A stretch of 64,000 nucleotides of DNA, from the NCBI GenBank assembly GCA_015065085.1, contig SVQW01000002.1, positions 132,197 to 196,196 on the forward strand, written 5' to 3'. This DNA comes from Oscillospiraceae bacterium (GTDB lineage Bacteria > Bacillota > Clostridia > Oscillospirales > SIG627). The position numbers and the translations under genes are program-made. Below the pieces are notes generated by a model. It ran no database searches. It had not been told where the DNA came from and saw nothing but the letters and a program-made list of their open reading frames with translations. Shown here piece after piece: positions 13,576 to 20,548 of the stretch; positions within the stretch are counted from its first letter, which is position 1, and each line of letters starts with the position of its first letter.

Positions 13576-13785
13576 TCAGTTCTGCTTGCGAACGAATTTA
13601 TACTCATCGTAAAATTTATAATACGGACAATCGTACTTTTTGCCGTATGCCATGCGCGCCATTTCGTCCTCGTCAAAGCTTACGGTACATTCGTTTTGTT
13701 CGGTATCAATATTGTAGTCGTAATATGCACAGGTTTCGCACTGTGCATTTTTGTTTTCGCCTGCCACATCCATTCCTCCATGCAT
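13576..13785 (-). CDS. 69-aa acidic/aromatic four-Cys miniprotein (uncharacterised)
   Basis: The ATG overlaps the upstream stop (TAATG). An alternative GTG at 13767 lies behind GGAGGA. Has CxxC plus two more Cys (CETC...C...C). The C-terminal KKYDCPYYKFYDEYKF repeats the tail of the upstream protein. Confidence 0.6.
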   Translation of the reverse strand: MHGGMDVAGENKNAQCETCAYYDYNIDTEQNECTVSFDEDEMARMAYGKKYDCPYYKFYDEYKFVRKQN

Positions 13786-16070
13786 TAAAAGTCATAAAAC
13801 GGATAATCGTATTTTTTGAAGTCGTAATAGGAATAGTCCTTGTTCTCTTCTTTTTCTTCCTTTTTATTCTTTTCCATCTTTACTTCACGCATTTTAAGGC
13901 TGATTTCATCAAGCATATCAAGCGCCTCGGTCTTTGTGCCGTCCGCCACACGGTCAATCGGCTCGCCCTTTTCGGTCAATTCAAGCTTCATTTCGCTTTC
14001 GTCACATTCCACCAGACATGGATGGAGCTTTAATGAAAGGCTTTTATGCGTTCCGAATTCTTTGTAGTAATGCACATACATATCCGTAAATCTGAAACCG
14101 CTGACGCGCATGAAAGCATTCCATCTGCGGTGCTCCAGCCAGGCAAGTCTGTGACGCATCCATGCATCCTCCGTCACAACAAGATCGCCCTTTGCAAAGC
14201 TTTCATACTTTTGGTAATCCTTTTTGAGCGCTTCAAGATAAGTATCATAGTCCTTTTCGTCAAAAACAGAGGCGGTTGCCATACCACAGGAAAACATCTT
14301 ATACGGGATATGCACCGCACGTGCCGAATTAGCCCAGAAGGTGTAATCATCCCTTGTGCGCTTCTTGTTACTCTTAGCTCGTTTTTCGGCATCCGCGGCA
14401 AAATTATACTTTTCATCCAGCGAATCCGCCTTTATGCTCAGTTCGGGACTCAATACATTTCCCGCACTGTACATCTCGCCCATCGAGCCGAAAGCATACA
14501 TATATATGTCGGGATAAAACATTTTGGAAGAGGTGAAGAGCCTTGCGTTGTTGAGCGCCTTGCACATTTCAGTATCATATATTGCGTATGCTATGACCGT
14601 TTTTTTGTTGTGCGCGGATTCAAGATGATATTTTCCGATTTCACGTCGCAACGCATCCGCAACAGTAAGATTAAGCTCGTCCGAACCCAATGCCACAACG
14701 AAATAGTCGGTGTCAAGAAGAGAAATGCCGTCCTTGTTCTTTTTCTCGAGCAGCTGAGGAATGTTTTCGAATCTCACATCTGCGCCAAAAAAGCTGAAGG
14801 AGCAATAGGGATTAGAAAATTCTCCTCTTTTATTCTTGACGAGTATTGGGTCATTTTCCGTTGCGGATTTTATTATATCGCAATTTATGCGGTTGAGTCT
14901 TCCCTCAAAATCCTCCTTGGTTTCATTGGCAACAACATTTATTCTGAGCTTACTGTCCAGTACCTGTCCGCACCAGTAAGTACCGGTAAGTACCTCGGTT
15001 CCGATAGAACCTGTACCGAAAACAGTTACGTTAAGGTCGGTATTAAGCCCCGGCTTTCTTCTGTGGATAAGCGGCTGATACAGCGGCACCTTCTGCAAAA
15101 GATTGCAGGCCAGCTTGCGGTAGCACTGAGCGGGAGTAACCGACGGCATTTCGCCTTCCTCAAGCCTTGAAGAAAGCATTTCAATAAAGCTCTTTTCTGC
15201 CAGAACATACGAATCATCCTGGCTAAACATGAATATTTCGGAATTTTTGAGATAACCCACATCCTTGCCGTCAGCCATTTTAGTCAGAGTGTGAAGGTTG
15301 TTTATCTCCTGCTCATCAATAAGAAAATACTTATTTTCAATATTCTTTTTCTTTTTTACATGTAAAATGTCATCCTGCAGGCAGATAGCGCCCATTGACT
15401 TTGCGGTTTTAATAAGCTCACTGCTCTTTTCGCTTTCGTCATCATGATATGCGTCGGTAAAAATAATCAGGGGCTTGGGGCTGTCTGCGTTATTCTCGGA
15501 CAGACTTGAAGCAAGTACTGCCGAGCGGGAATTAAGCTCGCTGAAATAGCAACGCATACGGCGTGAAAATTTCATAATGCACCATACTTTAAGCTTGGGG
15601 AATATATTAACCAGCACATCCAGTATTATTGCGCCCCCTGCAATGGGCGAGATAATATTGAGAACAGAGGCAAATATTCTGAAGCCTACACACATCCACT
15701 CACGTCCGAAAGCATAAAGAGAAGCCTGCTTCAAGCTCTGCATATATCCCTCGTAATCCGCATCCATACTGAAGGTCTGAAGCGATGCCACAACCGAAGA
15801 AAACAGTTCCTCCCACCAGGTAGATACCACAGCATCCCTTTCGGGCGATCGTACAACGTACAGACTTACGGCATACCTCATAAGAAATACCGCCAAAAGA
15901 AGTATTCCTGAAATTATAAATACGCTTTTTTCATTGAAGAAAGCAGTTCTGCACTCATTCTTTTTGCAGAAGTACCTGATTATCTTATATATGTACCAGC
16001 CAAGCATTGCCAGTACCATCAAAAACGCAGCCATCATAAGTGCGCCTATCAATTCATGGGGCCATACCAT
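13785..16070 (-). CDS. membrane-anchored protein with Rossmann-like (TrkA_N-like) domain and C-terminal RyR-like domain
   Basis: N-terminal hydrophobic helices (LIGALMMAAFLMVLAMLGWYIY; VFIISGILLLAVFLM; ISPIAGGAIILDVLVNIF). GxGxxG at NVTVFGTGSIGTE (about 15001-15038). C-terminal LAWLEHRRWNAFMRVSGFRF...KLHPCLVE (13998-14147). Start set at ATG 16070 (GAAAGGAAG RBS spanning the esterase stop). The track start at 16121 has no RBS. Confidence 0.8.
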   Translation of the reverse strand: MVWPHELIGALMMAAFLMVLAMLGWYIYKIIRYFCKKNECRTAFFNEKSVFIISGILLLAVFLMRYAVSLYVVRSPERDAVVSTWWEELFSSVVASLQTFSMDADYEGYMQSLKQASLYAFGREWMCVGFRIFASVLNIISPIAGGAIILDVLVNIFPKLKVWCIMKFSRRMRCYFSELNSRSAVLASSLSENNADSPKPLIIFTDAYHDDESEKSSELIKTAKSMGAICLQDDILHVKKKKNIENKYFLIDEQEINNLHTLTKMADGKDVGYLKNSEIFMFSQDDSYVLAEKSFIEMLSSRLEEGEMPSVTPAQCYRKLACNLLQKVPLYQPLIHRRKPGLNTDLNVTVFGTGSIGTEVLTGTYWCGQVLDSKLRINVVANETKEDFEGRLNRINCDIIKSATENDPILVKNKRGEFSNPYCSFSFFGADVRFENIPQLLEKKNKDGISLLDTDYFVVALGSDELNLTVADALRREIGKYHLESAHNKKTVIAYAIYDTEMCKALNNARLFTSSKMFYPDIYMYAFGSMGEMYSAGNVLSPELSIKADSLDEKYNFAADAEKRAKSNKKRTRDDYTFWANSARAVHIPYKMFSCGMATASVFDEKDYDTYLEALKKDYQKYESFAKGDLVVTEDAWMRHRLAWLEHRRWNAFMRVSGFRFTDMYVHYYKEFGTHKSLSLKLHPCLVECDESEMKLELTEKGEPIDRVADGTKTEALDMLDEISLKMREVKMEKNKKEEKEENKDYSYYDFKKYDYPFYDF

Positions 16071-16090
16071 AAAATCTCTACTTCCTTTCG

Positions 16091-16723
16091 TTACAGCTTC
16101 CTGTTTTTGCTCATAAGCCATTCTATAAGCTTATCATTATAGGCGTGCTCCCAGACATTGTGTCCGACACCTTCAACACGTGAATAGGTAACATCCCCTC
16201 CGCGTGCTTTAATACTTTGTACCATATGGTCGGAATTGACAACGCTTACAACACTGTCCTCCACACCGTGAAATACCCACACCGGCATATCCAGCACTCC
16301 TGCATTCCAGGGCATTCCGCCGCCGCATACAGGCGATATAGCGGCAAACATTCGGGGGCATGCCATTGCGGTGAACCAAGTACCGTAGCCTCCCATACTC
16401 AGACCGGTAAGATAAATTCTTTGCTTATCAACCTCAAATTCCTCAGAAATCTTCTGAATGAAGCTTATTATCGACTCCACCTTTGCTGCCCAGAAAGTAT
16501 CAGGAGGGCACTGAGGCATAACAAAAATACAATCATATTCGTTTTTTGCCATAAGCTTCGAAAAGCCGTGAACATCCACCTTTGATAGGTCATCACCGCC
16601 CTTGCCCCTTTCACCCGCACCGTGAAGCTGGACCACAAGGGGGAGATTGCTTTTTTCGTTTTCGGGTGAATACTTAACAAACGGGAAAGCCCATTGTGAG
16701 CCTCTGCATTCTGTTCTTTTCAT
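16091..16723 (-). CDS. alpha/beta-hydrolase, esterase/serine-hydrolase family (LpqC/carboxylesterase-like)
   Basis: Oxyanion region LHGAGERG, nucleophile elbow GLSMGG, acid FHGVEDSVV and His in GVGHNVW. No signal peptide. The ATG lies 4 nt after the upstream stop, with a GAAAGG RBS. Confidence 0.85.
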   Translation of the reverse strand: MKRTECRGSQWAFPFVKYSPENEKSNLPLVVQLHGAGERGKGGDDLSKVDVHGFSKLMAKNEYDCIFVMPQCPPDTFWAAKVESIISFIQKISEEFEVDKQRIYLTGLSMGGYGTWFTAMACPRMFAAISPVCGGGMPWNAGVLDMPVWVFHGVEDSVVSVVNSDHMVQSIKARGGDVTYSRVEGVGHNVWEHAYNDKLIEWLMSKNRKL

Positions 16724-16727
16724 AAAA

Positions 16728-19700
16728 TCAGCCTTTCAGTATACTTTCGATTTCGGCACCTGAAAGATGATTTTGGGTTATCAGTGCATCTACCAGTGCA
16801 TCCATCTTTTTCCTGTTCTTTTCTATTATTTCAACAGCAAGCTGAAGCTGTTCGGCAAGTATCTTATTTACCGATGAGCGGACCTCGCGTGACAGCTCAC
16901 CGCTTCTTGCAGACTCGCTTTCTATGGTGGCAAGCCCGAATTCTTCGTCCATGCCGTAGGTACAGATTATGTGCTGTGCCATATTGGTTGCAGAATTCAA
17001 ATCTCCGCTTGCTCCTGTGGAAATACCGTCCTTATTACCGTAATAAACAATTTCCGCTGCTCTTCCGCCCAGTGCAGTGCGTATACGGCTGACAAGCTCA
17101 TCCTTTGTGTAGCTTCCTTTATTTTCGGTATCACCATGTTGCATATATCCGCCGTGGTCGCCACGTGCAACCACCGTAAGATATGACGGTGTTTCACCGC
17201 TTTCGTAGCATATAAAGGCGTGTCCCGCTTCATGTCTTGCGGTGCGCTCCAGCTGAGACGGATCCCACTTTTTCTTTTCACCGCTTGTAAAGGTTTCAAA
17301 GGCTTCCTCAAATGCTTCGTCGGTAACCTTAATATCACCCTCGCGGATGGCAGTTCTTAAAGACATTTCAAAAACCGATTCCAGTGCGGCAAGGCTCATG
17401 CCGGTGGAACGCACGGCTATATTTTCAATTTTTTCTTCACTGATGGTGTATATTGGGTTTTCAGATGCTTTAAGCCTCATGTAACGGATTCGTTCCTGCT
17501 TATTCGGCAAATCGATGTATACCCGTCTGTCAAAACGGCGCATAAGCGCACCGTCAAGGCTCTTGGGACTTCCCGGCTCTACGTCGAAATTGGTGGCAGC
17601 CAATACGAACACAGGCTTTGTAACATCGTTCTTGAAGCCGTCCATTTCCGTAAGAAACGCTGTGAGAATTTCCTCTGCTCCGCTGTTGTTGTCACCGCCC
17701 TTACGTTCTTTGGCAATGGCATCTATTTCATCCACAAAAACTATGGCAGGCGCGTATTTTCTTGCCGTTCTGAACAGCTCATGCACCTTTTCGGGGCCTT
17801 CGCCTACATACTTTTTCAAAAACTGGTTTCCCTCGGCAGTAATAAAAGTAGCGTCCGATTCACTCGCCATTGCTTTTGCAAGCATGGTTTTACCCGTGCC
17901 GGGCGGGCCGTAAAGCAATACACCTCTGGGAGCTCTCACACCCGTACCTATGTACTTTTTGGGGTTTCTGAGATATTCGGCAAAGTATTTCAGCTCTTTC
18001 TTGGCATCCTCGGCACCGATAACTTTATCAAAGCTTATATTGGGCTTGGACACATTACTGAGTATATTCTCGGAATCCTCAGCATCAAGCGCGATCTCCA
18101 TTCTGAAATCAAAAAGTCTTATTTCAGCCGTCTTGCCTCCGTTCTTAAGGCACTGGGCGGTTTCAAACCTCACCAGTTTATTGGCCTTTGCAAGTGTCTC
18201 CATGCTGTTTTGCTGGTGAAGGGCGGCACAGATAATATCCATATCCTGCGAAAAGCTCTTTTTATTTCCCTCAAGAGTTATTACACCCCTGACGCCCTGG
18301 CGCATGAAGGAAACCTTTTCCTCGTCGTTGAACTGATGGGCGCGGGTTTCCAGCAGATACGTGGGAAGCTGATTATAATTCTCGCGTATAAAGTGCAAAA
18401 AGTCGCGTGCGGAGGAATCCACATCCTCTACATTGAGATACTCGTTAAGCGGATTTCTTATGCCGTAATTCACATCAAAAAGCGCCAATGCTATTTCGTT
18501 TTCCCGTATTACCTTTTTGGCACTGTCAAGGTCAGAAACATGTATAAAACTGCATCCGCATCTTGCGTCACTGCACAGCTGTGCAATCTCTTCCTGAGCG
18601 AAAACGATAACCTTTGGAGGCTCCATTCCTTCAAAGAGCGACAGCACCTCGTCATTGTCACTTGGCAAATCAAGAGTAATATTTATATTGTTTATCTTTT
18701 TTACAGAGCCTTTGAGTGAGTCTGATGCGGCAAGACGGAAAAGCTCGAAAAGCTCATCGTCAAAAAACGCCTCCGCACGGCTTCGTACCGTTCTGGCATC
18801 CGTAGCTCCGCCCTCTGCAAACAGCAGTGCAGTATACACCTTTTCGTCTATATCTACCTTTACACCTATCTCGTTCTCAAAGTCGCGGGCATGTCGCAAT
18901 ACCTCATTCTTGGCAATCATGCGCAGGCTGTGGGCTGAAATGTGATTGAACATAACCACGTTTCCCGAAGCAAAGCGGGAGCATATGGCACCCGGGAAAA
19001 ACGGAACACCCGTTTCGGGATTTTTGTCATTCTGAAGTGCTTTTAGAATAACCTTACGTGTAACGCATGAGAAATCTCCGTTTTCGGAGTTTTCATAAAG
19101 CTGTTTTCCCGCATTGGTGGTAAGTATTATTATGGTATCCGAGAAGGACACCTCGTTATCGGTATAGTTGTCGCGCAGTCTGCCTGCATCCAGCATCTGC
19201 AAGAACAGATGTATAACGCACATATGAGCCTTTTCAATTTCATCAAACAGCAGTACGCATCTGGGGTTCTTCTCAACAAAGCTTGTAACATTACCGGCCT
19301 TGCCGTTTTTATATACCTTGTCCGAACCGCAGAATTCAATATTTGCTTCCTTATCGGCATACTCACTCATATCAAAACGCATGAAAGGAAGCCCCAGCTC
19401 CATTGCGGCACTTTCCGCCAGAAAAGTTTTTCCCACTCCGGGAGGACCCGCAAAAAGAAATGTAGCGCGGGGTCTGGTGCGGGTTTTGTCGGTAAGTGCG
19501 AGAAGCTCGGAGCGAAAATACCCCGAGGCAAAAACGCTTATGGCATTATCCTGTCCGAAAATTTTACCGGACAGTGCCTTTTGTATATTCTTCACCTTGT
19601 TTACAAGGTATTCCATCTTTTCCTTGGGATTGTCAGGCAGCTTTTCCTGAGGCAGCTTCACCTCGGGCTGAGGCTTTTTTGCGGGCTTCTTTTCTTCCAA

Positions 19701-20246
19701 AGCGACATCTTCATCGCAATCCATTTTGAATTTTTTGGCAAAATTTTCTTTTATTTTTTTCTTTTCTTCATCTGAAATCGAAGAAAGCGGTTTTTCACCT
19801 TCATTGCCGTTTTTCTTGCCCGATTCCCATTCGGTGCCGTAGCTTTTACGTATACAATTTCTTATTCTTTCGTTGGGAACGGCAAATATGACCTCGAGAA
19901 GCAGCTCGGGGGTAAGGCAGGGATGCTTTTTTTCAACCGCTTTTTCGGTTGCTTCCTTCAATTTACGCTTCATATACAATTCATCCAGGAATCCCGTAGA
20001 TTTGGGGTCGGACACATACTCATTGAGTATGTCGGAAGCAACATCCATGTCTATTCCGTTTTTAATGAATATTTCCTTAAAGATTGTTATTATCGCCGTT
20101 TCTTTCGTTCCGGTACTTTCCTGCACCGTTTTTATTACCGCCAGAAGAAACCGCTCCACCGTGAGAATTCCCAAAGTATTGTTGCCTATAAACTTTGAGT
20201 AAGACAGCAACGAATCCAGCAAAGCACTGTTTTTTATTTCAGCCAT
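16728..20246 (-). CDS. 1172-aa soluble hybrid AAA+ protease: Clp_N-like + ClpB-D2-type AAA + REC-like + FtsH-type AAA + M41 metalloprotease
   Basis: N-terminal double Clp_N-like repeat (LTVERFLLAVIK / LTPELLLEVIF). AAA_2 module: IFGQDNAI, GPPGVGKT (~19423-19450), DMSEY, LLFDEIEKAH. Central CheY-like segment: KVIVFAQEE...ALALFDVNYG (~18270-18625). Classic AAA module: GPPGTGKT (~17886-17915), VFVDEIDA, ATNF, RRFDR. HEAGH zinc motif at 17220-17234. No TM segment. Confidence 0.9.
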   Translation of the reverse strand: MAEIKNSALLDSLLSYSKFIGNNTLGILTVERFLLAVIKTVQESTGTKETAIITIFKEIFIKNGIDMDVASDILNEYVSDPKSTGFLDELYMKRKLKEATEKAVEKKHPCLTPELLLEVIFAVPNERIRNCIRKSYGTEWESGKKNGNEGEKPLSSISDEEKKKIKENFAKKFKMDCDEDVALEEKKPAKKPQPEVKLPQEKLPDNPKEKMEYLVNKVKNIQKALSGKIFGQDNAISVFASGYFRSELLALTDKTRTRPRATFLFAGPPGVGKTFLAESAAMELGLPFMRFDMSEYADKEANIEFCGSDKVYKNGKAGNVTSFVEKNPRCVLLFDEIEKAHMCVIHLFLQMLDAGRLRDNYTDNEVSFSDTIIILTTNAGKQLYENSENGDFSCVTRKVILKALQNDKNPETGVPFFPGAICSRFASGNVVMFNHISAHSLRMIAKNEVLRHARDFENEIGVKVDIDEKVYTALLFAEGGATDARTVRSRAEAFFDDELFELFRLAASDSLKGSVKKINNINITLDLPSDNDEVLSLFEGMEPPKVIVFAQEEIAQLCSDARCGCSFIHVSDLDSAKKVIRENEIALALFDVNYGIRNPLNEYLNVEDVDSSARDFLHFIRENYNQLPTYLLETRAHQFNDEEKVSFMRQGVRGVITLEGNKKSFSQDMDIICAALHQQNSMETLAKANKLVRFETAQCLKNGGKTAEIRLFDFRMEIALDAEDSENILSNVSKPNISFDKVIGAEDAKKELKYFAEYLRNPKKYIGTGVRAPRGVLLYGPPGTGKTMLAKAMASESDATFITAEGNQFLKKYVGEGPEKVHELFRTARKYAPAIVFVDEIDAIAKERKGGDNNSGAEEILTAFLTEMDGFKNDVTKPVFVLAATNFDVEPGSPKSLDGALMRRFDRRVYIDLPNKQERIRYMRLKASENPIYTISEEKIENIAVRSTGMSLAALESVFEMSLRTAIREGDIKVTDEAFEEAFETFTSGEKKKWDPSQLERTARHEAGHAFICYESGETPSYLTVVARGDHGGYMQHGDTENKGSYTKDELVSRIRTALGGRAAEIVYYGNKDGISTGASGDLNSATNMAQHIICTYGMDEEFGLATIESESARSGELSREVRSSVNKILAEQLQLAVEIIEKNRKKMDALVDALITQNHLSGAEIESILKG

Positions 20247-20248
20247 TA

Positions 20249-20548
20249 TTAAATATCCCCTTTTGAATCATTTTTTTCTATTTTATATCCCAGTGCGATT
20301 ATAAGCTTCAGCGTCCCGATTGCCGTTATGCGGTCGTATTCCTTTTCTGATTCGGGAAGCTCATTATACGGCACAAGGCAGGGTGTGGTCTTTTTTATGT
20401 CGTCCCTTTTTTCGCCTAATGTCCAGCCCTCGGCAATACGCGCCTTTGCCCAGGTTTCATGAACATTTTCGGCTATTTTTTCCGTAAGCTCAATAAGCTC
20501 GCGGTCAAGACTTATATTATCTGTATTTATGGGTTTTGGTGTATACAT
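20249..20548 (-). CDS. stand-alone RyR (ryanodine-receptor-type) domain protein, 99 aa
   Basis: IAENVHETWAKARIAEGWTLGEKRDDIKKTTPCLVPYNELPESEKEYDRITAIGTLKLIIALGY matches the bacterial RyR-domain signature (HExWa...GWxxGexrd...kxxPxLvPyxeLxexeKexDR). GGAG RBS. The stop lies 2 nt before the next ATG. Confidence 0.85.
   Translation of the reverse strand: MYTPKPINTDNISLDRELIELTEKIAENVHETWAKARIAEGWTLGEKRDDIKKTTPCLVPYNELPESEKEYDRITAIGTLKLIIALGYKIEKNDSKGDI

What the first reader, a model, noticed from the sequence alone, without database searches (positions are those of the whole stretch)
16728..20246. Unusual single-chain architecture: Clp_N + ClpB-D2-type AAA + receiver-like insert + FtsH-type AAA + M41 protease, with no membrane anchor
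Seen: there are two different AAA+ lineages in one polypeptide. The first is the AAA_2 type (IFGQDNAI...GPPGVGKT...DMSEY...LLFDEIEKAH...LQMLDAGRLRD). The second is the classic FtsH type (GPPGTGKT...VFVDEIDA...ATNF...RRFDR). An intact HEAGH zinc site follows. The N-terminus carries two Clp_N-like repeats instead of the two TM helices of canonical FtsH. Between the ATPase modules, the segment KVIVFAQEE...IALALFDVNYG...LPTYLLETR...MRQGVRGVI reads like a CheY-type receiver fold.
Established: FtsH is normally membrane-anchored with one AAA ring. Clp ATPases normally hand substrates to a separate peptidase.
Inference: this is a self-contained, signal-gated unfoldase-protease. Its membrane recruitment may be supplied in trans by the TM/RyR-like protein of the same operon.
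Basis: partly seen in the sequence, partly recalled or inferred. Interest (0 to 1): 0.7.

Follow-up and report, generated by a model that had tools for sequence, protein, structure and literature searches.

The report
Soluble two-ring Clp–FtsH fusion protease
This gene really does encode one 1172-residue soluble protein that joins a Clp-type unfolding motor, a receiver-like switch domain and a complete FtsH-type motor-plus-zinc-protease; the design is undescribed but conserved in hundreds of gut and rumen Clostridia, usually next to nucleotide-sensing (RyR, CARF, TIR) genes, which suggests a new regulated protease system, possibly for cell defence.

Summary
ORF 16728..20246 (-) is intact and encodes 1172 aa. 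It has five modules: a Clp_N-like helical head, an AAA_2 (Clp/Hsp100 D2-type) ATPase, a receiver-fold insert followed by a helix and β-hairpin, an FtsH-type AAA domain, and an M41 protease. There is no transmembrane segment.

It is not an artefact. The identical protein lies on at least 23 independent contigs, and more than 120 sequence clusters cover the full length. All catalytic and pore-loop residues of both ATPases and the zinc site are invariant.

The receiver fold is well supported, but it is a pseudo-receiver. Only the Asp at the acceptor position is kept, and the acidic pair, Thr/Ser and Lys are missing. The Clp_N assignment rests on fold similarity and weak sequence signals.

The family is restricted to Clostridia (Oscillospirales-type gut and rumen MAGs). 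Its neighbourhoods are modular: a TM–TrkA_N–RyR protein, a small RyR protein, YbjN-like genes, a CARF–nuclease, TIR–TPR/NACHT proteins and a giant transglutaminase-like protein. Distant members replace the head with a kinase, a WD40-like propeller or a NADAR domain.

Best reading: this is the proteolytic core of an accessory system coupled to nucleotide signals, probably a conflict system. Function is inferred, not shown. I found no description of it in the literature or in curated families. I rate it a new variant of a known kind, interest about 0.65.

The parts
19833..20246 (-). Residues 1-138: Clp_N-like all-helical head. The motif LT(A/P)E..L...I occurs twice.
   Evidence: AF2 pLDDT 86, seven helices. 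Top Foldseek hits are Clp/Hsp100 N-domains, TM 0.5-0.63. Profile against PDB: ClpA N-domain E 0.018. No Pfam hit. The start Met is invariant.
19620..19832 (-). Residues 139-209: variable linker rich in Lys, Glu and Pro, probably disordered.
   Evidence: About 40% gaps and 14-21% conservation in the 120-sequence alignment.
18711..19619 (-). Residues 210-512: Clp/Hsp100 D2-type (AAA_2, HCLR clade) ATPase with its small domain. Key residues: Walker A K273, Walker B D335/E336, pore-loop Y312, R356/R358, N378, R424, D483-A-R485.
   Evidence: Pfam AAA_2 4.8e-34. ClpA D2 1.5e-48. PDB matches to ClpE/ClpB/ClpA D2. Motifs invariant in 120 homologues.
18252..18710 (-). Residues 513-665: pseudo-receiver with a CheY-like (βα)5 fold. 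D591 sits at the acceptor position. It has its own invariant loop, YLNxEDxxSxARDF (603-616), and invariant S646, G651 and R653.
   Evidence: AF2 pLDDT 87. Top 50 Foldseek hits are all receiver domains. Residue statistics. Profile hits only to receivers.
18072..18251 (-). Residues 666-725: long conserved helix (LHQQxSMxxLAKANKL) plus a β-hairpin that leads into the second ATPase.
   Evidence: AF2 secondary structure. Conservation 0.72-0.80. The PADLOC IetA profile alignment starts at residue 658.
17271..18071 (-). Residues 726-992: FtsH-type classic-clade AAA module. Key residues: Walker A K786, Walker B D839/E840, pore loop Y813-V-G815, N886, and second-region-of-homology arginines R903/R904/R907.
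   Evidence: Pfam AAA 2e-52. FtsH_fam 1.9e-105. PDB FtsH cores. Invariant motifs.
16728..17270 (-). Residues 993-1172 plus the stop codon: M41 zinc metalloprotease domain. H1005-E-A-G-H1009, with D1082 as the third ligand.
   Evidence: Pfam Peptidase_M41 9.6e-34. H, E, H and D are invariant in 120/120 sequences.
20249..20548 (-). Upstream partner: a 99-aa single RyR-domain protein. Its stop codon lies 2 nt before the protease ATG. It has H30, W33, T55 and D72 at the spacing of the ligand residues of phage RyDEP.
   Evidence: Pfam RyR 1.6e-35. Sequence. H30, W33 and D72 are invariant in 28 orthologues. RyDEP residues from PMC13232231.
16091..16723 (-). 210-aa cytoplasmic α/β-hydrolase (esterase with a GLSMGG nucleophile elbow). 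It is wedged between the protease gene and the TM gene and is private to this genome's operon.
   Evidence: Pfam BD-FAE, Peptidase_S9 and Abhydrolase_2. No homologue flanks the protease in the 73 other loci.
13785..16121 (-). 778-aa membrane partner. It has 3-4 N-terminal TM segments, a Rossmann GxGxxG domain (TrkA_N-like) and a C-terminal RyR-like domain with invariant E-H-x2-W, H and D.
   Evidence: Hydrophobicity. Family profile against PDB: RyR domains, 8e-5. Family members hit TrkA_N (6/26) and RyR (8/26). Adjacent in 28/49 loci.
13576..13785 (-). 69-aa Cys-rich ORF (DUF6472) whose start overlaps the stop of the TM gene. It may be the last gene of the cluster.
   Evidence: ORF list. Pfam label from precomputed calls on independent contigs.

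Best explanation
The gene encodes a cytosolic, self-compartmentalising AAA+ metalloprotease with two different motor tiers.

Inferred assembly. By analogy with FtsH, six chains assemble through the M41 domains. A Clp/Hsp100 D2-type ring sits on top of an FtsH-type ring, and substrates are threaded through both pores into the zinc-protease chamber. The Clp_N-like head, on a flexible charged linker, docks substrates or adaptors.

Inferred regulation. Between the rings lie a pseudo-receiver and a conserved helix-hairpin. These act as a regulatory or assembly switch for the FtsH-type ring. The topology (receiver, long helix, AAA+) resembles NtrC1/DctD-type regulators. The switch is not driven by His-Asp phosphotransfer.

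Inferred role. The protein is not a housekeeping FtsH. It is the proteolytic core of an accessory, modular gene system found only in gut and rumen Clostridia. In this window it is translationally coupled to a soluble RyR-domain protein and co-transcribed with a membrane TM-TrkA_N-RyR protein. RyR domains are adenine-nucleotide/cADPR-binding modules. The most likely logic is that a nucleotide signal or metabolite sensed by the RyR partners controls proteolysis near the membrane, or is controlled by it. The purpose is probably a conflict (anti-phage or stress) response.

Shown versus inferred. Shown: the architecture, intact active sites, the fold assignments, conservation, the synteny and the head swapping. 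Inferred: the hexamer, ring stacking, the role of the switch, the nucleotide input and the biological role.
For: - Intact ORF with all modules.
- Both Walker A/B sets, arginine fingers, sensor residues, pore-loop Tyr/Phe, HEAGH and Asp are invariant in 120 homologues.
- No TM segment.
- Receiver fold. NtrC-family receivers (FleR, LuxO, NtrX, DctD, HupR) are among the best matches. Phospho-chemistry residues are missing.
- Clp_N-like fold.
- The core D2-REC-(helix-hairpin)-FtsH AAA-M41 is present in most of the 150 best representatives of the insert family. That family has 227 clusters at E<=1e-10.
- Heads are swapped for Pkinase(+TPR), a WD40-like propeller or NADAR-DarT1 in distant members.
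- 70 loci in GTDB species representatives, all Clostridia.
- Of 49 loci with full flanks, 43 carry at least one of TM-RyR (28), RyR (21), YbjN-like (22) or CARF-PD-(D/E)xK nuclease (20). TIR-TPR/NACHT is present in 10 and a giant transglutaminase-like protein in 8.
- Gene spacing is operonic, 2-60 nt or overlapping.
- Several MAGs have two copies, and two loci have two copies within 10 kb.
- The RyR pocket residues H, W and D are invariant in the small partners and in the TM partner family. Phage RyR-domain proteins bind or cleave 2'/3'-cADPR (PMC13232231).
Against: - There are no experimental data for any member.
- In this window the cluster sits among ordinary metabolic and transport genes (LuxS, Mem_trans, Iso_dh). 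No TIR, CARF or YbjN gene occurs anywhere in the 64 kb.
- No PADLOC system model matches beyond generic AAA similarity.
- The family is absent from the phage, plasmid and IMG/VR collections.
- The partner sets are a mosaic. Some adjacency may therefore reflect defence-island clustering rather than one system. TIR co-occurrence with the TM-RyR gene is only weakly enriched (10 of 15 TIR loci against 34 of 70 overall).
- Six of the 49 full-flank loci have none of the four main partners.
- Whether a 150-residue receiver between the tiers allows coaxial stacking is unknown.
- The Clp_N assignment is statistically weak.
Confidence: 0.55

Rival explanations
1. It is a housekeeping or stress proteostasis machine: a stand-alone disaggregase-protease. 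The Clp_N head and D2 ring extract aggregated or misfolded proteins and feed them straight into a soluble FtsH module. The neighbouring genes are incidental.
For: Clp_N plus D2 is the hallmark of Hsp100 disaggregases, and single-D2 machines exist (human CLPB structures appear among the hits). All motors are intact. In this window the flanking genes are ordinary metabolism and transport. No known defence-system model matches.
Against: - The distribution is patchy and clade-restricted: 70 loci among 185,579 species representatives from one search pattern.
- Multiple paralogues occur per genome and per locus.
- The head is swapped for kinase, WD40-like or NADAR domains.
- Operonic linkage to RyR, TM-RyR, CARF-nuclease and YbjN-like genes recurs in 43/49 loci.
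- TIR-NACHT/TPR neighbours are present.
- A dedicated regulatory pseudo-receiver has no counterpart in bulk quality-control proteases.
Confidence: 0.2
2. It is a regulatory protease of a signalling circuit, analogous in logic to the CalpL-type CARF-Lon / anti-sigma / sigma systems. It would cleave one specific partner to release a membrane effector or a transcription factor. The partner could be the small RyR protein, a YbjN-like protein, or the small protein paired with the sigma-like c6 gene. Here c6 and c9 are this report's names for two uncharacterised neighbour-gene clusters (c6 300-355 aa, c9 about 90 aa).
For: Small partner proteins are tightly coupled to the protease gene (2-nt gap here). 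A CARF-nuclease is adjacent in 20/49 loci. The recurrent c6/c9 pair has, by eye, a sigma-70 region-2-like motif in c6. A Clp_N-type head is typically an adaptor- or substrate-docking domain (established for ClpA/ClpC).
Against: The sigma-like reading of c6 has no Pfam or PDB support. No single small partner is universal. Two full unfoldase tiers seem excessive for a single cleavage event. Nothing was tested.
Confidence: 0.2
3. It is a fusion artefact: two neighbouring genes (a Clp-like ATPase and an FtsH-like protease) joined by a mis-assembly or frameshift around 18.2-18.7 kb.
For: None found.
Against: The identical 1172-aa product is on at least 23 contigs from independent assemblies. 120 clusters at 56-62% identity cover the full length. 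The junction region is itself a conserved, confidently folded domain. 70 species-level genomes carry the same arrangement.
Confidence: 0.01

Closest known systems
FtsH (membrane-bound AAA+ / M41 zinc protease)
   Same: The C-terminal 440 residues align end to end with crystallised soluble FtsH cores (E about 1e-71 to 1e-75). They share the classic-clade AAA domain with a second region of homology, an aromatic-hydrophobic-Gly pore loop, HEXXH and the Asp third ligand.
   Different: There are no transmembrane helices and no periplasmic domain. The NCBIfam FtsH equivalog score is 353.9 against a cut-off of 600. About 730 extra N-terminal residues carry a second, unrelated ATPase tier and a receiver fold. 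The gene is accessory, clade-restricted and sometimes multi-copy.
Class I Clp/Hsp100 ATPases (ClpA, ClpC, ClpE, ClpB, Hsp104)
   Same: It has a D2-type AAA_2 module with a complete catalytic set and a sensor-2 DAR motif. The N-terminal helical domain has a Clp N-domain-like fold.
   Different: There is no D1 and no M-domain, and I saw no ClpP-docking IGF/L-type loop by reading the sequence. The tier order is inverted: here the HCLR-clade module precedes a classic-clade module, whereas ClpA and ClpB have classic-type D1 before HCLR-type D2 (established knowledge). The peptidase is fused and is a metalloprotease, not a separate ClpP.
NtrC1/DctD-type receiver-AAA+ regulators (bacterial enhancer-binding proteins)
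   Same: The topology is a receiver fold, then a long helix, then an AAA+ module. NtrC-family receivers (FleR, LuxO, NtrX, DctD, HupR) are among the best structural matches.
   Different: The receiver lacks the phosphorylation machinery apart from the Asp. The downstream AAA+ is FtsH-type, not sigma-54-activator type. There is no DNA-binding domain and no cognate kinase. The regulatory analogy is inference only.
FtsH-containing MoxR-vWA ternary conflict systems (Kaur et al. 2020, PMC7159879)
   Same: A soluble FtsH-type AAA+ protein with two ATPase modules sits in a modular, variable conflict-type neighbourhood.
   Different: Those proteins have two FtsH-type AAA domains with the N-terminal one inactive. 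They are coupled to MoxR and vWA genes and occur in deltaproteobacteria, actinobacteria and planctomycetes. Here the first module is an active D2-type ATPase, and the partners are RyR, TrkA_N-RyR, CARF and YbjN-like genes. In the sections I searched, the text never contains the term 'M41' (0 occurrences).
Phage RyDEP / RyR-domain (PF02026) nucleotide-binding proteins (Lopez Rivera et al. 2026 preprint, PMC13232231)
   Same: The 99-aa partner is a bona fide PF02026 protein (1.6e-35). It has H30, W33 and D72 at the spacing of RyDEP H75, W78 and D117, invariant in 28 orthologues.
   Different: The phosphate-binding His is Thr here (T55). The gene is cellular, not phage-borne. It is coupled to a protease and a membrane protein. 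No binding or glycosidase activity was tested.

Membership tests
FtsH (NCBIfam TIGR01241 equivalog) | Two N-terminal transmembrane helices flanking a periplasmic domain | tested here: not met
   The maximum Kyte-Doolittle 19-mer is 1.29 and no TM-like segment exists. The N-terminus is a soluble helical domain.
FtsH (NCBIfam TIGR01241 equivalog) | Classic AAA module with Walker A/B, an aromatic-hydrophobic-Gly pore loop and the arginines of the second region of homology | tested here: met
   K786, D839/E840, Y813-V-G815, N886 and R903/R904/R907 are invariant or nearly so in 120 homologues. Pfam AAA 2e-52.
FtsH (NCBIfam TIGR01241 equivalog) | M41 domain with HEXXH and an acidic third zinc ligand | tested here: met
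   H1005, E1006, H1009 and D1082 are present in 120/120 sequences. Pfam Peptidase_M41 9.6e-34.
FtsH (NCBIfam TIGR01241 equivalog) | Whole-protein score above the curated cut-off | tested here: not met
   353.9 bits against a cut-off of 600, with only profile positions 150-598 matched.
Clp/Hsp100 class I ATPases | D2-type AAA_2 nucleotide-binding domain with sensor-2 in a small domain | tested here: met
   AAA_2 4.8e-34. ClpA D2 1.5e-48. PDB ClpE/ClpB/ClpA D2. D483-A-R485 is invariant. The Pfam ClpB_D2-small model itself did not hit.
Clp/Hsp100 class I ATPases | D1 nucleotide-binding domain (and an M-domain in ClpB/ClpC) | tested here: not met
   Only one AAA_2-type module is present. Residues 139-209 are a low-complexity linker. 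All NCBIfam Clp scores are far below their cut-offs.
Clp/Hsp100 class I ATPases | Clp_N double-repeat N-terminal domain (PF02861) | tested here: inconclusive
   No Pfam hit even at E<=10. Profile against PDB: ClpA N-domain E 0.018. Top Foldseek hits are Clp/Hsp100 N-domains, TM 0.5-0.63 but E 0.14-1.5. hhalign against a ClpB N-domain: E 0.011, probability 4%. Internal repeat E 0.084.
Response-regulator receiver (REC, CheY-like) | (βα)5 flavodoxin-like fold matching receiver structures | tested here: met
   AF2 pLDDT 87. All 50 best Foldseek PDB hits are receivers, E 5e-5 to 4.5e-4, target TM 0.65-0.76 where the target is an isolated receiver domain.
Response-regulator receiver (REC, CheY-like) | Phospho-acceptor Asp at the end of β3 | tested here: met
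   D591 is present in 116/120 sequences and aligns with the acceptor Asp of 2msw.
Response-regulator receiver (REC, CheY-like) | Acidic Mg-binding pair after β1, conserved Thr/Ser after β4 and Lys after β5 | tested here: not met
   Positions 550-551 are A/S and S/D/G. T634 is present in only 48/120. Positions 657-660 have no conserved Lys.
Response-regulator receiver (REC, CheY-like) | Cognate histidine kinase or phosphotransfer partner | tested here: not met
   No HisKA or HATPase gene appears in the called neighbourhoods or among the annotated members of the 25 most frequent flanking clusters.
RyR domain (PF02026), the small partner | Pfam model above the gathering score, with the H-x2-W ... 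D ligand residues | tested here: met
   121.6 bits against a cut-off of 27.4. H30, W33 and D72 are invariant in 28 orthologues. The His equivalent to RyDEP H100 is Thr.
Known anti-phage defence systems (PADLOC-DB v2) | A match to a system-specific protein model beyond generic ATPase similarity | tested here: not met
   The protease gives only generic AAA hits (IetA, DolB, TRIP13). RyR, TM778 and the hydrolase give none. Only the neighbouring c3 gene, this report's label for a recurrent upstream neighbour cluster, matches a model: CARF4--CARF_PDDEXK, 5e-36.

The most novel reading that the evidence does not exclude
The cluster is an undescribed Clostridial immune or conflict system. In it, RyR domains serve as cellular receptors, or as hydrolases, for NAD-derived nucleotide signals such as TIR-made cADPR isomers or ADP-ribose. 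A TM-TrkA_N-RyR protein is the membrane effector or anchor. The two-tier Clp-FtsH protease, switched through its pseudo-receiver, is the executioner or the licensing step. Its N-terminal head (Clp_N-like, kinase, WD40-like or NADAR) acts as an exchangeable sensor.
Probability: 0.2. Interest if true: 0.85.

Novelty: new variant of a known kind. Interest (0 to 1): 0.65.

Why it matters
Every textbook AAA+ protease uses one of two designs. Either one motor lineage is fused to its peptidase (FtsH, Lon), or a Clp motor docks on a separate peptidase. This family breaks both rules:
- An active Clp D2-type tier and an active FtsH-type tier are fused in the opposite clade order to ClpA/ClpB.
- A receiver-fold switch lies between the tiers.
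- A metalloprotease is fused at the end.
- There is no membrane anchor.

The family is abundant in gut and rumen Clostridia and has never been studied. It offers a natural test of three questions: how heterologous AAA+ rings cooperate, how a pseudo-receiver can gate a protease, and what bacterial RyR domains do in cells. RyR domains have only just been linked to cADPR immune signals in phages. The recurrent linkage to CARF-nuclease, TIR and NADAR modules makes it a candidate new defence or signalling system.

Tried and rejected
- Assembly or fusion artefact: rejected.
- Canonical phospho-receiver: rejected on residue statistics and the absence of a kinase.
- True FtsH orthologue: rejected, because there are no TM helices and the score is below the cut-off.
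- Pfam on the isolated head, the D2 small domain and the insert gave nothing useful except OKR_DC_1_N at E 0.12.
- PADLOC gave only generic ATPase matches.
- hhalign of the head against one genuine ClpB N-domain and the internal-repeat test were both weak.
- tblastn against the phage and plasmid collections and an IMG/VR scan found no relatives.
- Eight literature searches found no description of the architecture. The FtsH ternary systems of Kaur et al. are a different architecture.
- There is no correlation between head type and partner set among the 70 loci, because all carry the Clp_N-like head.
- Flanking cluster c5 is probably an antisense shadow of the YbjN-like genes. Cluster c6 gave no PDB or Pfam match.
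- TIR enrichment next to TM-RyR is only weak (counts).

Full report
**1. The observation**

The minus-strand ORF 16728..20246 is one uninterrupted frame of 1172 codons.

Pfam places three modules:
- AAA_2 at residues 258-390 (4.8e-34)
- AAA at 776-912 (2e-52)
- Peptidase_M41 at 998-1169 (9.6e-34)

NCBIfam matches ClpA D2 over 215-475 (1.5e-48) and the FtsH family over 728-1166 (1.9e-105). The FtsH score of 353.9 bits is below the 600-bit equivalog cut-off.

Against solved structures, residues 733-1172 align end to end with the soluble cores of FtsH (4ww0, 2ce7, 2dhr; E about 1e-71 to 1e-75). The first ATPase matches the D2 modules of ClpE, ClpB, ClpA, ClpC and Hsp104 (7e-34 to 1e-28). So two AAA+ lineages, HCLR-clade D2 and classic-clade FtsH, sit in one chain. 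No segment approaches transmembrane hydrophobicity; the maximum Kyte-Doolittle 19-mer is 1.29.

**2. It is not an artefact**

- The identical protein is recorded on at least 23 contigs from independent ENA, JGI and other assemblies, with the same gene order.
- The protein search returned 120 clusters at 56-62% identity covering about 100% of the length, 1122-1250 aa.
- In an alignment of these, the suspected junction region (515-735) is conserved.
- A scan of GTDB species representatives found 70 loci with the same arrangement.

**3. The two uncertain domains**

*Middle insert.*
- Sequence evidence alone is thin. Pfam gives only OKR_DC_1_N at E 0.12. The family profile hits just two PDB chains, both receivers, at E 0.77.
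- The AlphaFold model built from 37 family members is confident (pLDDT 87). It shows a (βα)5 unit, then a 26-residue helix and a β-hairpin.
- All 50 best Foldseek matches in the PDB are receiver domains (E 5e-5 to 4.5e-4). The TM-score normalised to the target is 0.65-0.76 where the target is an isolated receiver domain.
- Many of the best matches are NtrC-family receivers: FleR, LuxO, NtrX, DctD and HupR.
- Residue statistics over 120 homologues show that the Asp at the acceptor position is kept (D591, 116/120). The acidic pair after β1 (A/S, S/D/G), the β4 Thr/Ser (T in 48/120) and the β5 Lys are not kept.
- The family instead has its own invariant residues: L604, N605, E607, D608, R614, S646 and G651.
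- No histidine kinase appears in any neighbourhood examined.
- Conclusion: the fold is a receiver, but it is a pseudo-receiver.

*N-terminal head.*
- There is no Pfam hit.
- The family profile's best PDB hits are ClpA N-domains (E 0.018), followed by Hsp104 N and ClpC2.
- The model is confident (pLDDT 86, seven helices).
- The eight best Foldseek hits are N-domains or N-domain-containing fragments of Clp/Hsp100 proteins (PfHsp101, ClpB, ClpC), and full-length ClpA and Hsp104 follow further down. TM is 0.5-0.63 but E-values are only 0.14-1.5.
- hhalign against a genuine ClpB N-domain taken from locus L015 is weak (E 0.011, probability 4%).
- The two halves resemble each other only over a 17-residue motif, LTAERFLVAVID against LTPELLLxCIL (E 0.084).

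**4. Catalytic competence**

The following residues are conserved in the 120 homologues.
- D2-type tier, all invariant or nearly so: Walker A K273, Walker B D335/E336, pore-loop Y312, R356/R358, sensor-1 N378, R424 and the sensor-2 D483-A-R485.
- FtsH tier: K786, D839/E840, pore loop Y/F813-V-G815, N886, and R903/R904/R907.
- Protease: H1005, E1006, H1009 and D1082 in 120/120.

Both motors and the protease are therefore predicted to be active.

**5. Family extent and head swapping**

An exhaustive profile search with the insert found 323 representative clusters at 50% identity, of which 227 have E<=1e-10. Module HMMs show that the core D2 - receiver - (helix-hairpin) - FtsH AAA - M41 is present in most of the 150 best representatives.

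Most members are 1100-1250 aa. A minority reach 1500-2126 aa and carry other N-terminal domains:
- a Ser/Thr protein kinase, some with TPR (P0213, P0235, P0219, P0216)
- a WD40-like propeller (P0211)
- a NADAR-DarT1 ADP-ribose-processing domain (P0148, 3.6e-43)

The head is thus an exchangeable module on a constant two-tier protease.

**6. Genomic context**

In the window, the 99-aa gene immediately upstream (20249..20548) is a bona fide RyR-domain protein (PF02026, 1.6e-35). Its stop codon lies 2 nt before the protease start.

Downstream follow three genes:
- A 210-aa α/β-hydrolase, private to this genome (no homologue in 73 other loci).
- A 778-aa protein with 3-4 N-terminal TM segments.
- A 69-aa Cys-rich ORF.

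The 778-aa family profile hits RyR-domain structures at its C-terminus (6uhi, 8e-5). It keeps invariant E-H-x2-W, H and D residues and a GxGxxG Rossmann motif. Individual members weakly hit TrkA_N (6/26) and RyR (8/26).

All 70 GTDB loci come from Clostridia. They are Oscillospiraceae, Acutalibacteraceae, Ruminococcus, Faecousia, Lawsonibacter, Ruminiclostridium and similar gut or rumen MAGs.

Among the 49 loci with at least 3 kb on both sides, the neighbours are as follows.

| Neighbour | Loci (of 49) |
|---|---|
| TM-RyR protein | 28 |
| Small RyR protein | 21 |
| YbjN-like genes (PF10722) | 22 |
| CARF + PD-(D/E)xK nuclease (PADLOC CARF4--CARF_PDDEXK, 5e-36) | 20 |
| TIR-TPR or TIR-NACHT-TPR proteins | 10 |
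| Giant transglutaminase-like protein | 8 |

Forty-three of the 49 have at least one of the first four.

- One locus has FHA and TIR-kinase genes directly upstream.
- Two loci hold a second paralogue within 10 kb.
- Several MAGs carry two loci.
- Spacing between the protease, TM and RyR genes is 7-60 nt or overlapping.
- No relative occurs in the phage, plasmid or IMG/VR collections.

**7. What the RyR link suggests**

A 2026 preprint (PMC13232231) shows that phage PF02026 proteins (RyDEP) bind or cleave the TIR-made Thoeris signals 2'- and 3'-cADPR. They use H75, W78, H100 and D117, and the pocket is shared with the animal RyR Repeat12 domain.

The window's small RyR protein has H30, W33 and D72 at exactly that spacing, invariant in 28 orthologues. 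It has Thr in place of the phosphate-binding His. The TM partner family keeps H, W, H and D.

Add the CARF-nuclease, TIR and NADAR modules in related loci, and the recurring theme is nucleotide or NAD-derived signalling. This is context, not proof. The window itself has no TIR, CARF or YbjN gene in its 64 kb. The enrichment of TIR genes next to TM-RyR is weak.

**8. Mechanism**

Shown:
- a soluble chain with a docking-type head
- a disordered charged linker
- an active D2-type motor
- a pseudo-receiver plus helix-hairpin
- an active FtsH-type motor
- an M41 protease

Inferred from established FtsH and Clp mechanisms: the chain hexamerises through M41, the two rings stack, and substrates are threaded through both pores into the protease chamber.

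Inferred from topology and the best structural matches: the receiver-helix unit controls assembly or activity of the second ring, as in NtrC1/DctD. The input would not be His-Asp phosphotransfer. It could be partner binding, Ser/Thr phosphorylation or a small ligand at the invariant NxED/R loop.

Inferred from synteny: the RyR partners couple the protease to a nucleotide cue and to the membrane.

I rate this overall reading at about 0.55. The bulk quality-control alternative gets about 0.2, and a dedicated single-substrate regulatory protease about 0.2.

**9. Comparison with known systems and novelty**

The protein works like an FtsH core with an added Clp tier, but it fails membership tests for both families. 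For FtsH, it has no TM helices and scores below the cut-off. For class I Clp ATPases, it has no D1 and no M-domain, and I saw no ClpP-docking loop by reading the sequence.

The tier order, HCLR clade then classic clade, is the reverse of ClpA/ClpB (established knowledge).

The FtsH ternary systems of Kaur et al. 2020 differ. They have two FtsH-type modules with the first inactive, they are coupled to MoxR and vWA genes, and they occur in other phyla.

Eight literature searches found no description of this architecture. Public records call it only 'AAA family ATPase'.

I rate it a new variant of a known kind, the AAA+ protease. There is a roughly 0.2 chance that the whole cluster is a new nucleotide-signalling immune system.

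Noticed in passing
window 16091-16723 (-): A 210-aa cytoplasmic α/β-hydrolase (GLSMGG esterase, PHB-depolymerase-like) sits 4 nt after the protease stop and overlaps the start of the TM gene. It is absent from all 73 related loci, so it is a private addition to this operon.
   Followed up: partly
window 13576-13785 (-): A 69-aa Cys-rich ORF (DUF6472 in precomputed calls) overlaps the stop of the 778-aa TM gene by one base. It may be a fifth gene of the cluster.
   Followed up: no
L040:6874-8196 (+), and 20 of 49 related loci: A CARF + PD-(D/E)xK nuclease (PADLOC CARF4--CARF_PDDEXK 5e-36; Pfam Card1_endonuc is weak) lies upstream on the same strand as the protease gene. No cyclase or Cas10 was seen nearby.
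   Followed up: partly
L015:7389-7952 (+), and 22 of 49 related loci: One or two YbjN-like genes (PF10722, 107-187 aa) lie upstream of the protease gene. A co-occurring 'c5' cluster on the opposite strand is probably their antisense shadow ORF.
   Followed up: partly
L024:3860-8281, L011:5187-7484, L001:14257-17814, L001:5722-7981: TIR-TPR, TIR-NACHT-TPR, and an FHA gene plus a TIR-protein-kinase gene lie next to the protease cluster in about 10 of 49 loci. This is typical of conflict or defence islands.
   Followed up: partly
L070:238-5445, L003:2600-7780: Giant (about 1730 aa) transglutaminase-like proteins lie upstream in 8 of 49 loci. L003 also has a Tubulin_2 gene.
   Followed up: no
L003:17120-19618 and L070:14990-17875: A second paralogue of the two-tier protease lies within 10 kb of the first. 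Several MAGs (CANQXF01, CANRKP01, JAFSCD01) carry two loci.
   Followed up: no
P0213, P0235, P0219, P0216, P0211, P0148 (representative proteins): Distant family members replace or precede the head with a Ser/Thr kinase (with or without TPR), a WD40-like propeller, or a NADAR-DarT1 ADP-ribose-processing domain. Their organisms and neighbourhoods could not be looked up.
   Followed up: partly
L071:3543-4607 with L071:4594-4860, and about 10 other loci: A recurrent gene pair, c6 (300-355 aa) and c9 (about 90 aa), lies upstream of the protease. By eye, c6 contains a sigma-70 region-2-like motif (…EIHLRLIKT…WMFRVAxNIKRDF…), but it has no Pfam or PDB match.
   Followed up: partly
window residues 603-616 of the protease (about 18399-18440, -): An invariant acidic/basic loop, YLNxEDxxSxARDF, lies between β3 and α3 of the pseudo-receiver, next to D591. 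It could be a metal, ligand or partner site that replaces the canonical phosphorylation pocket.
   Followed up: no
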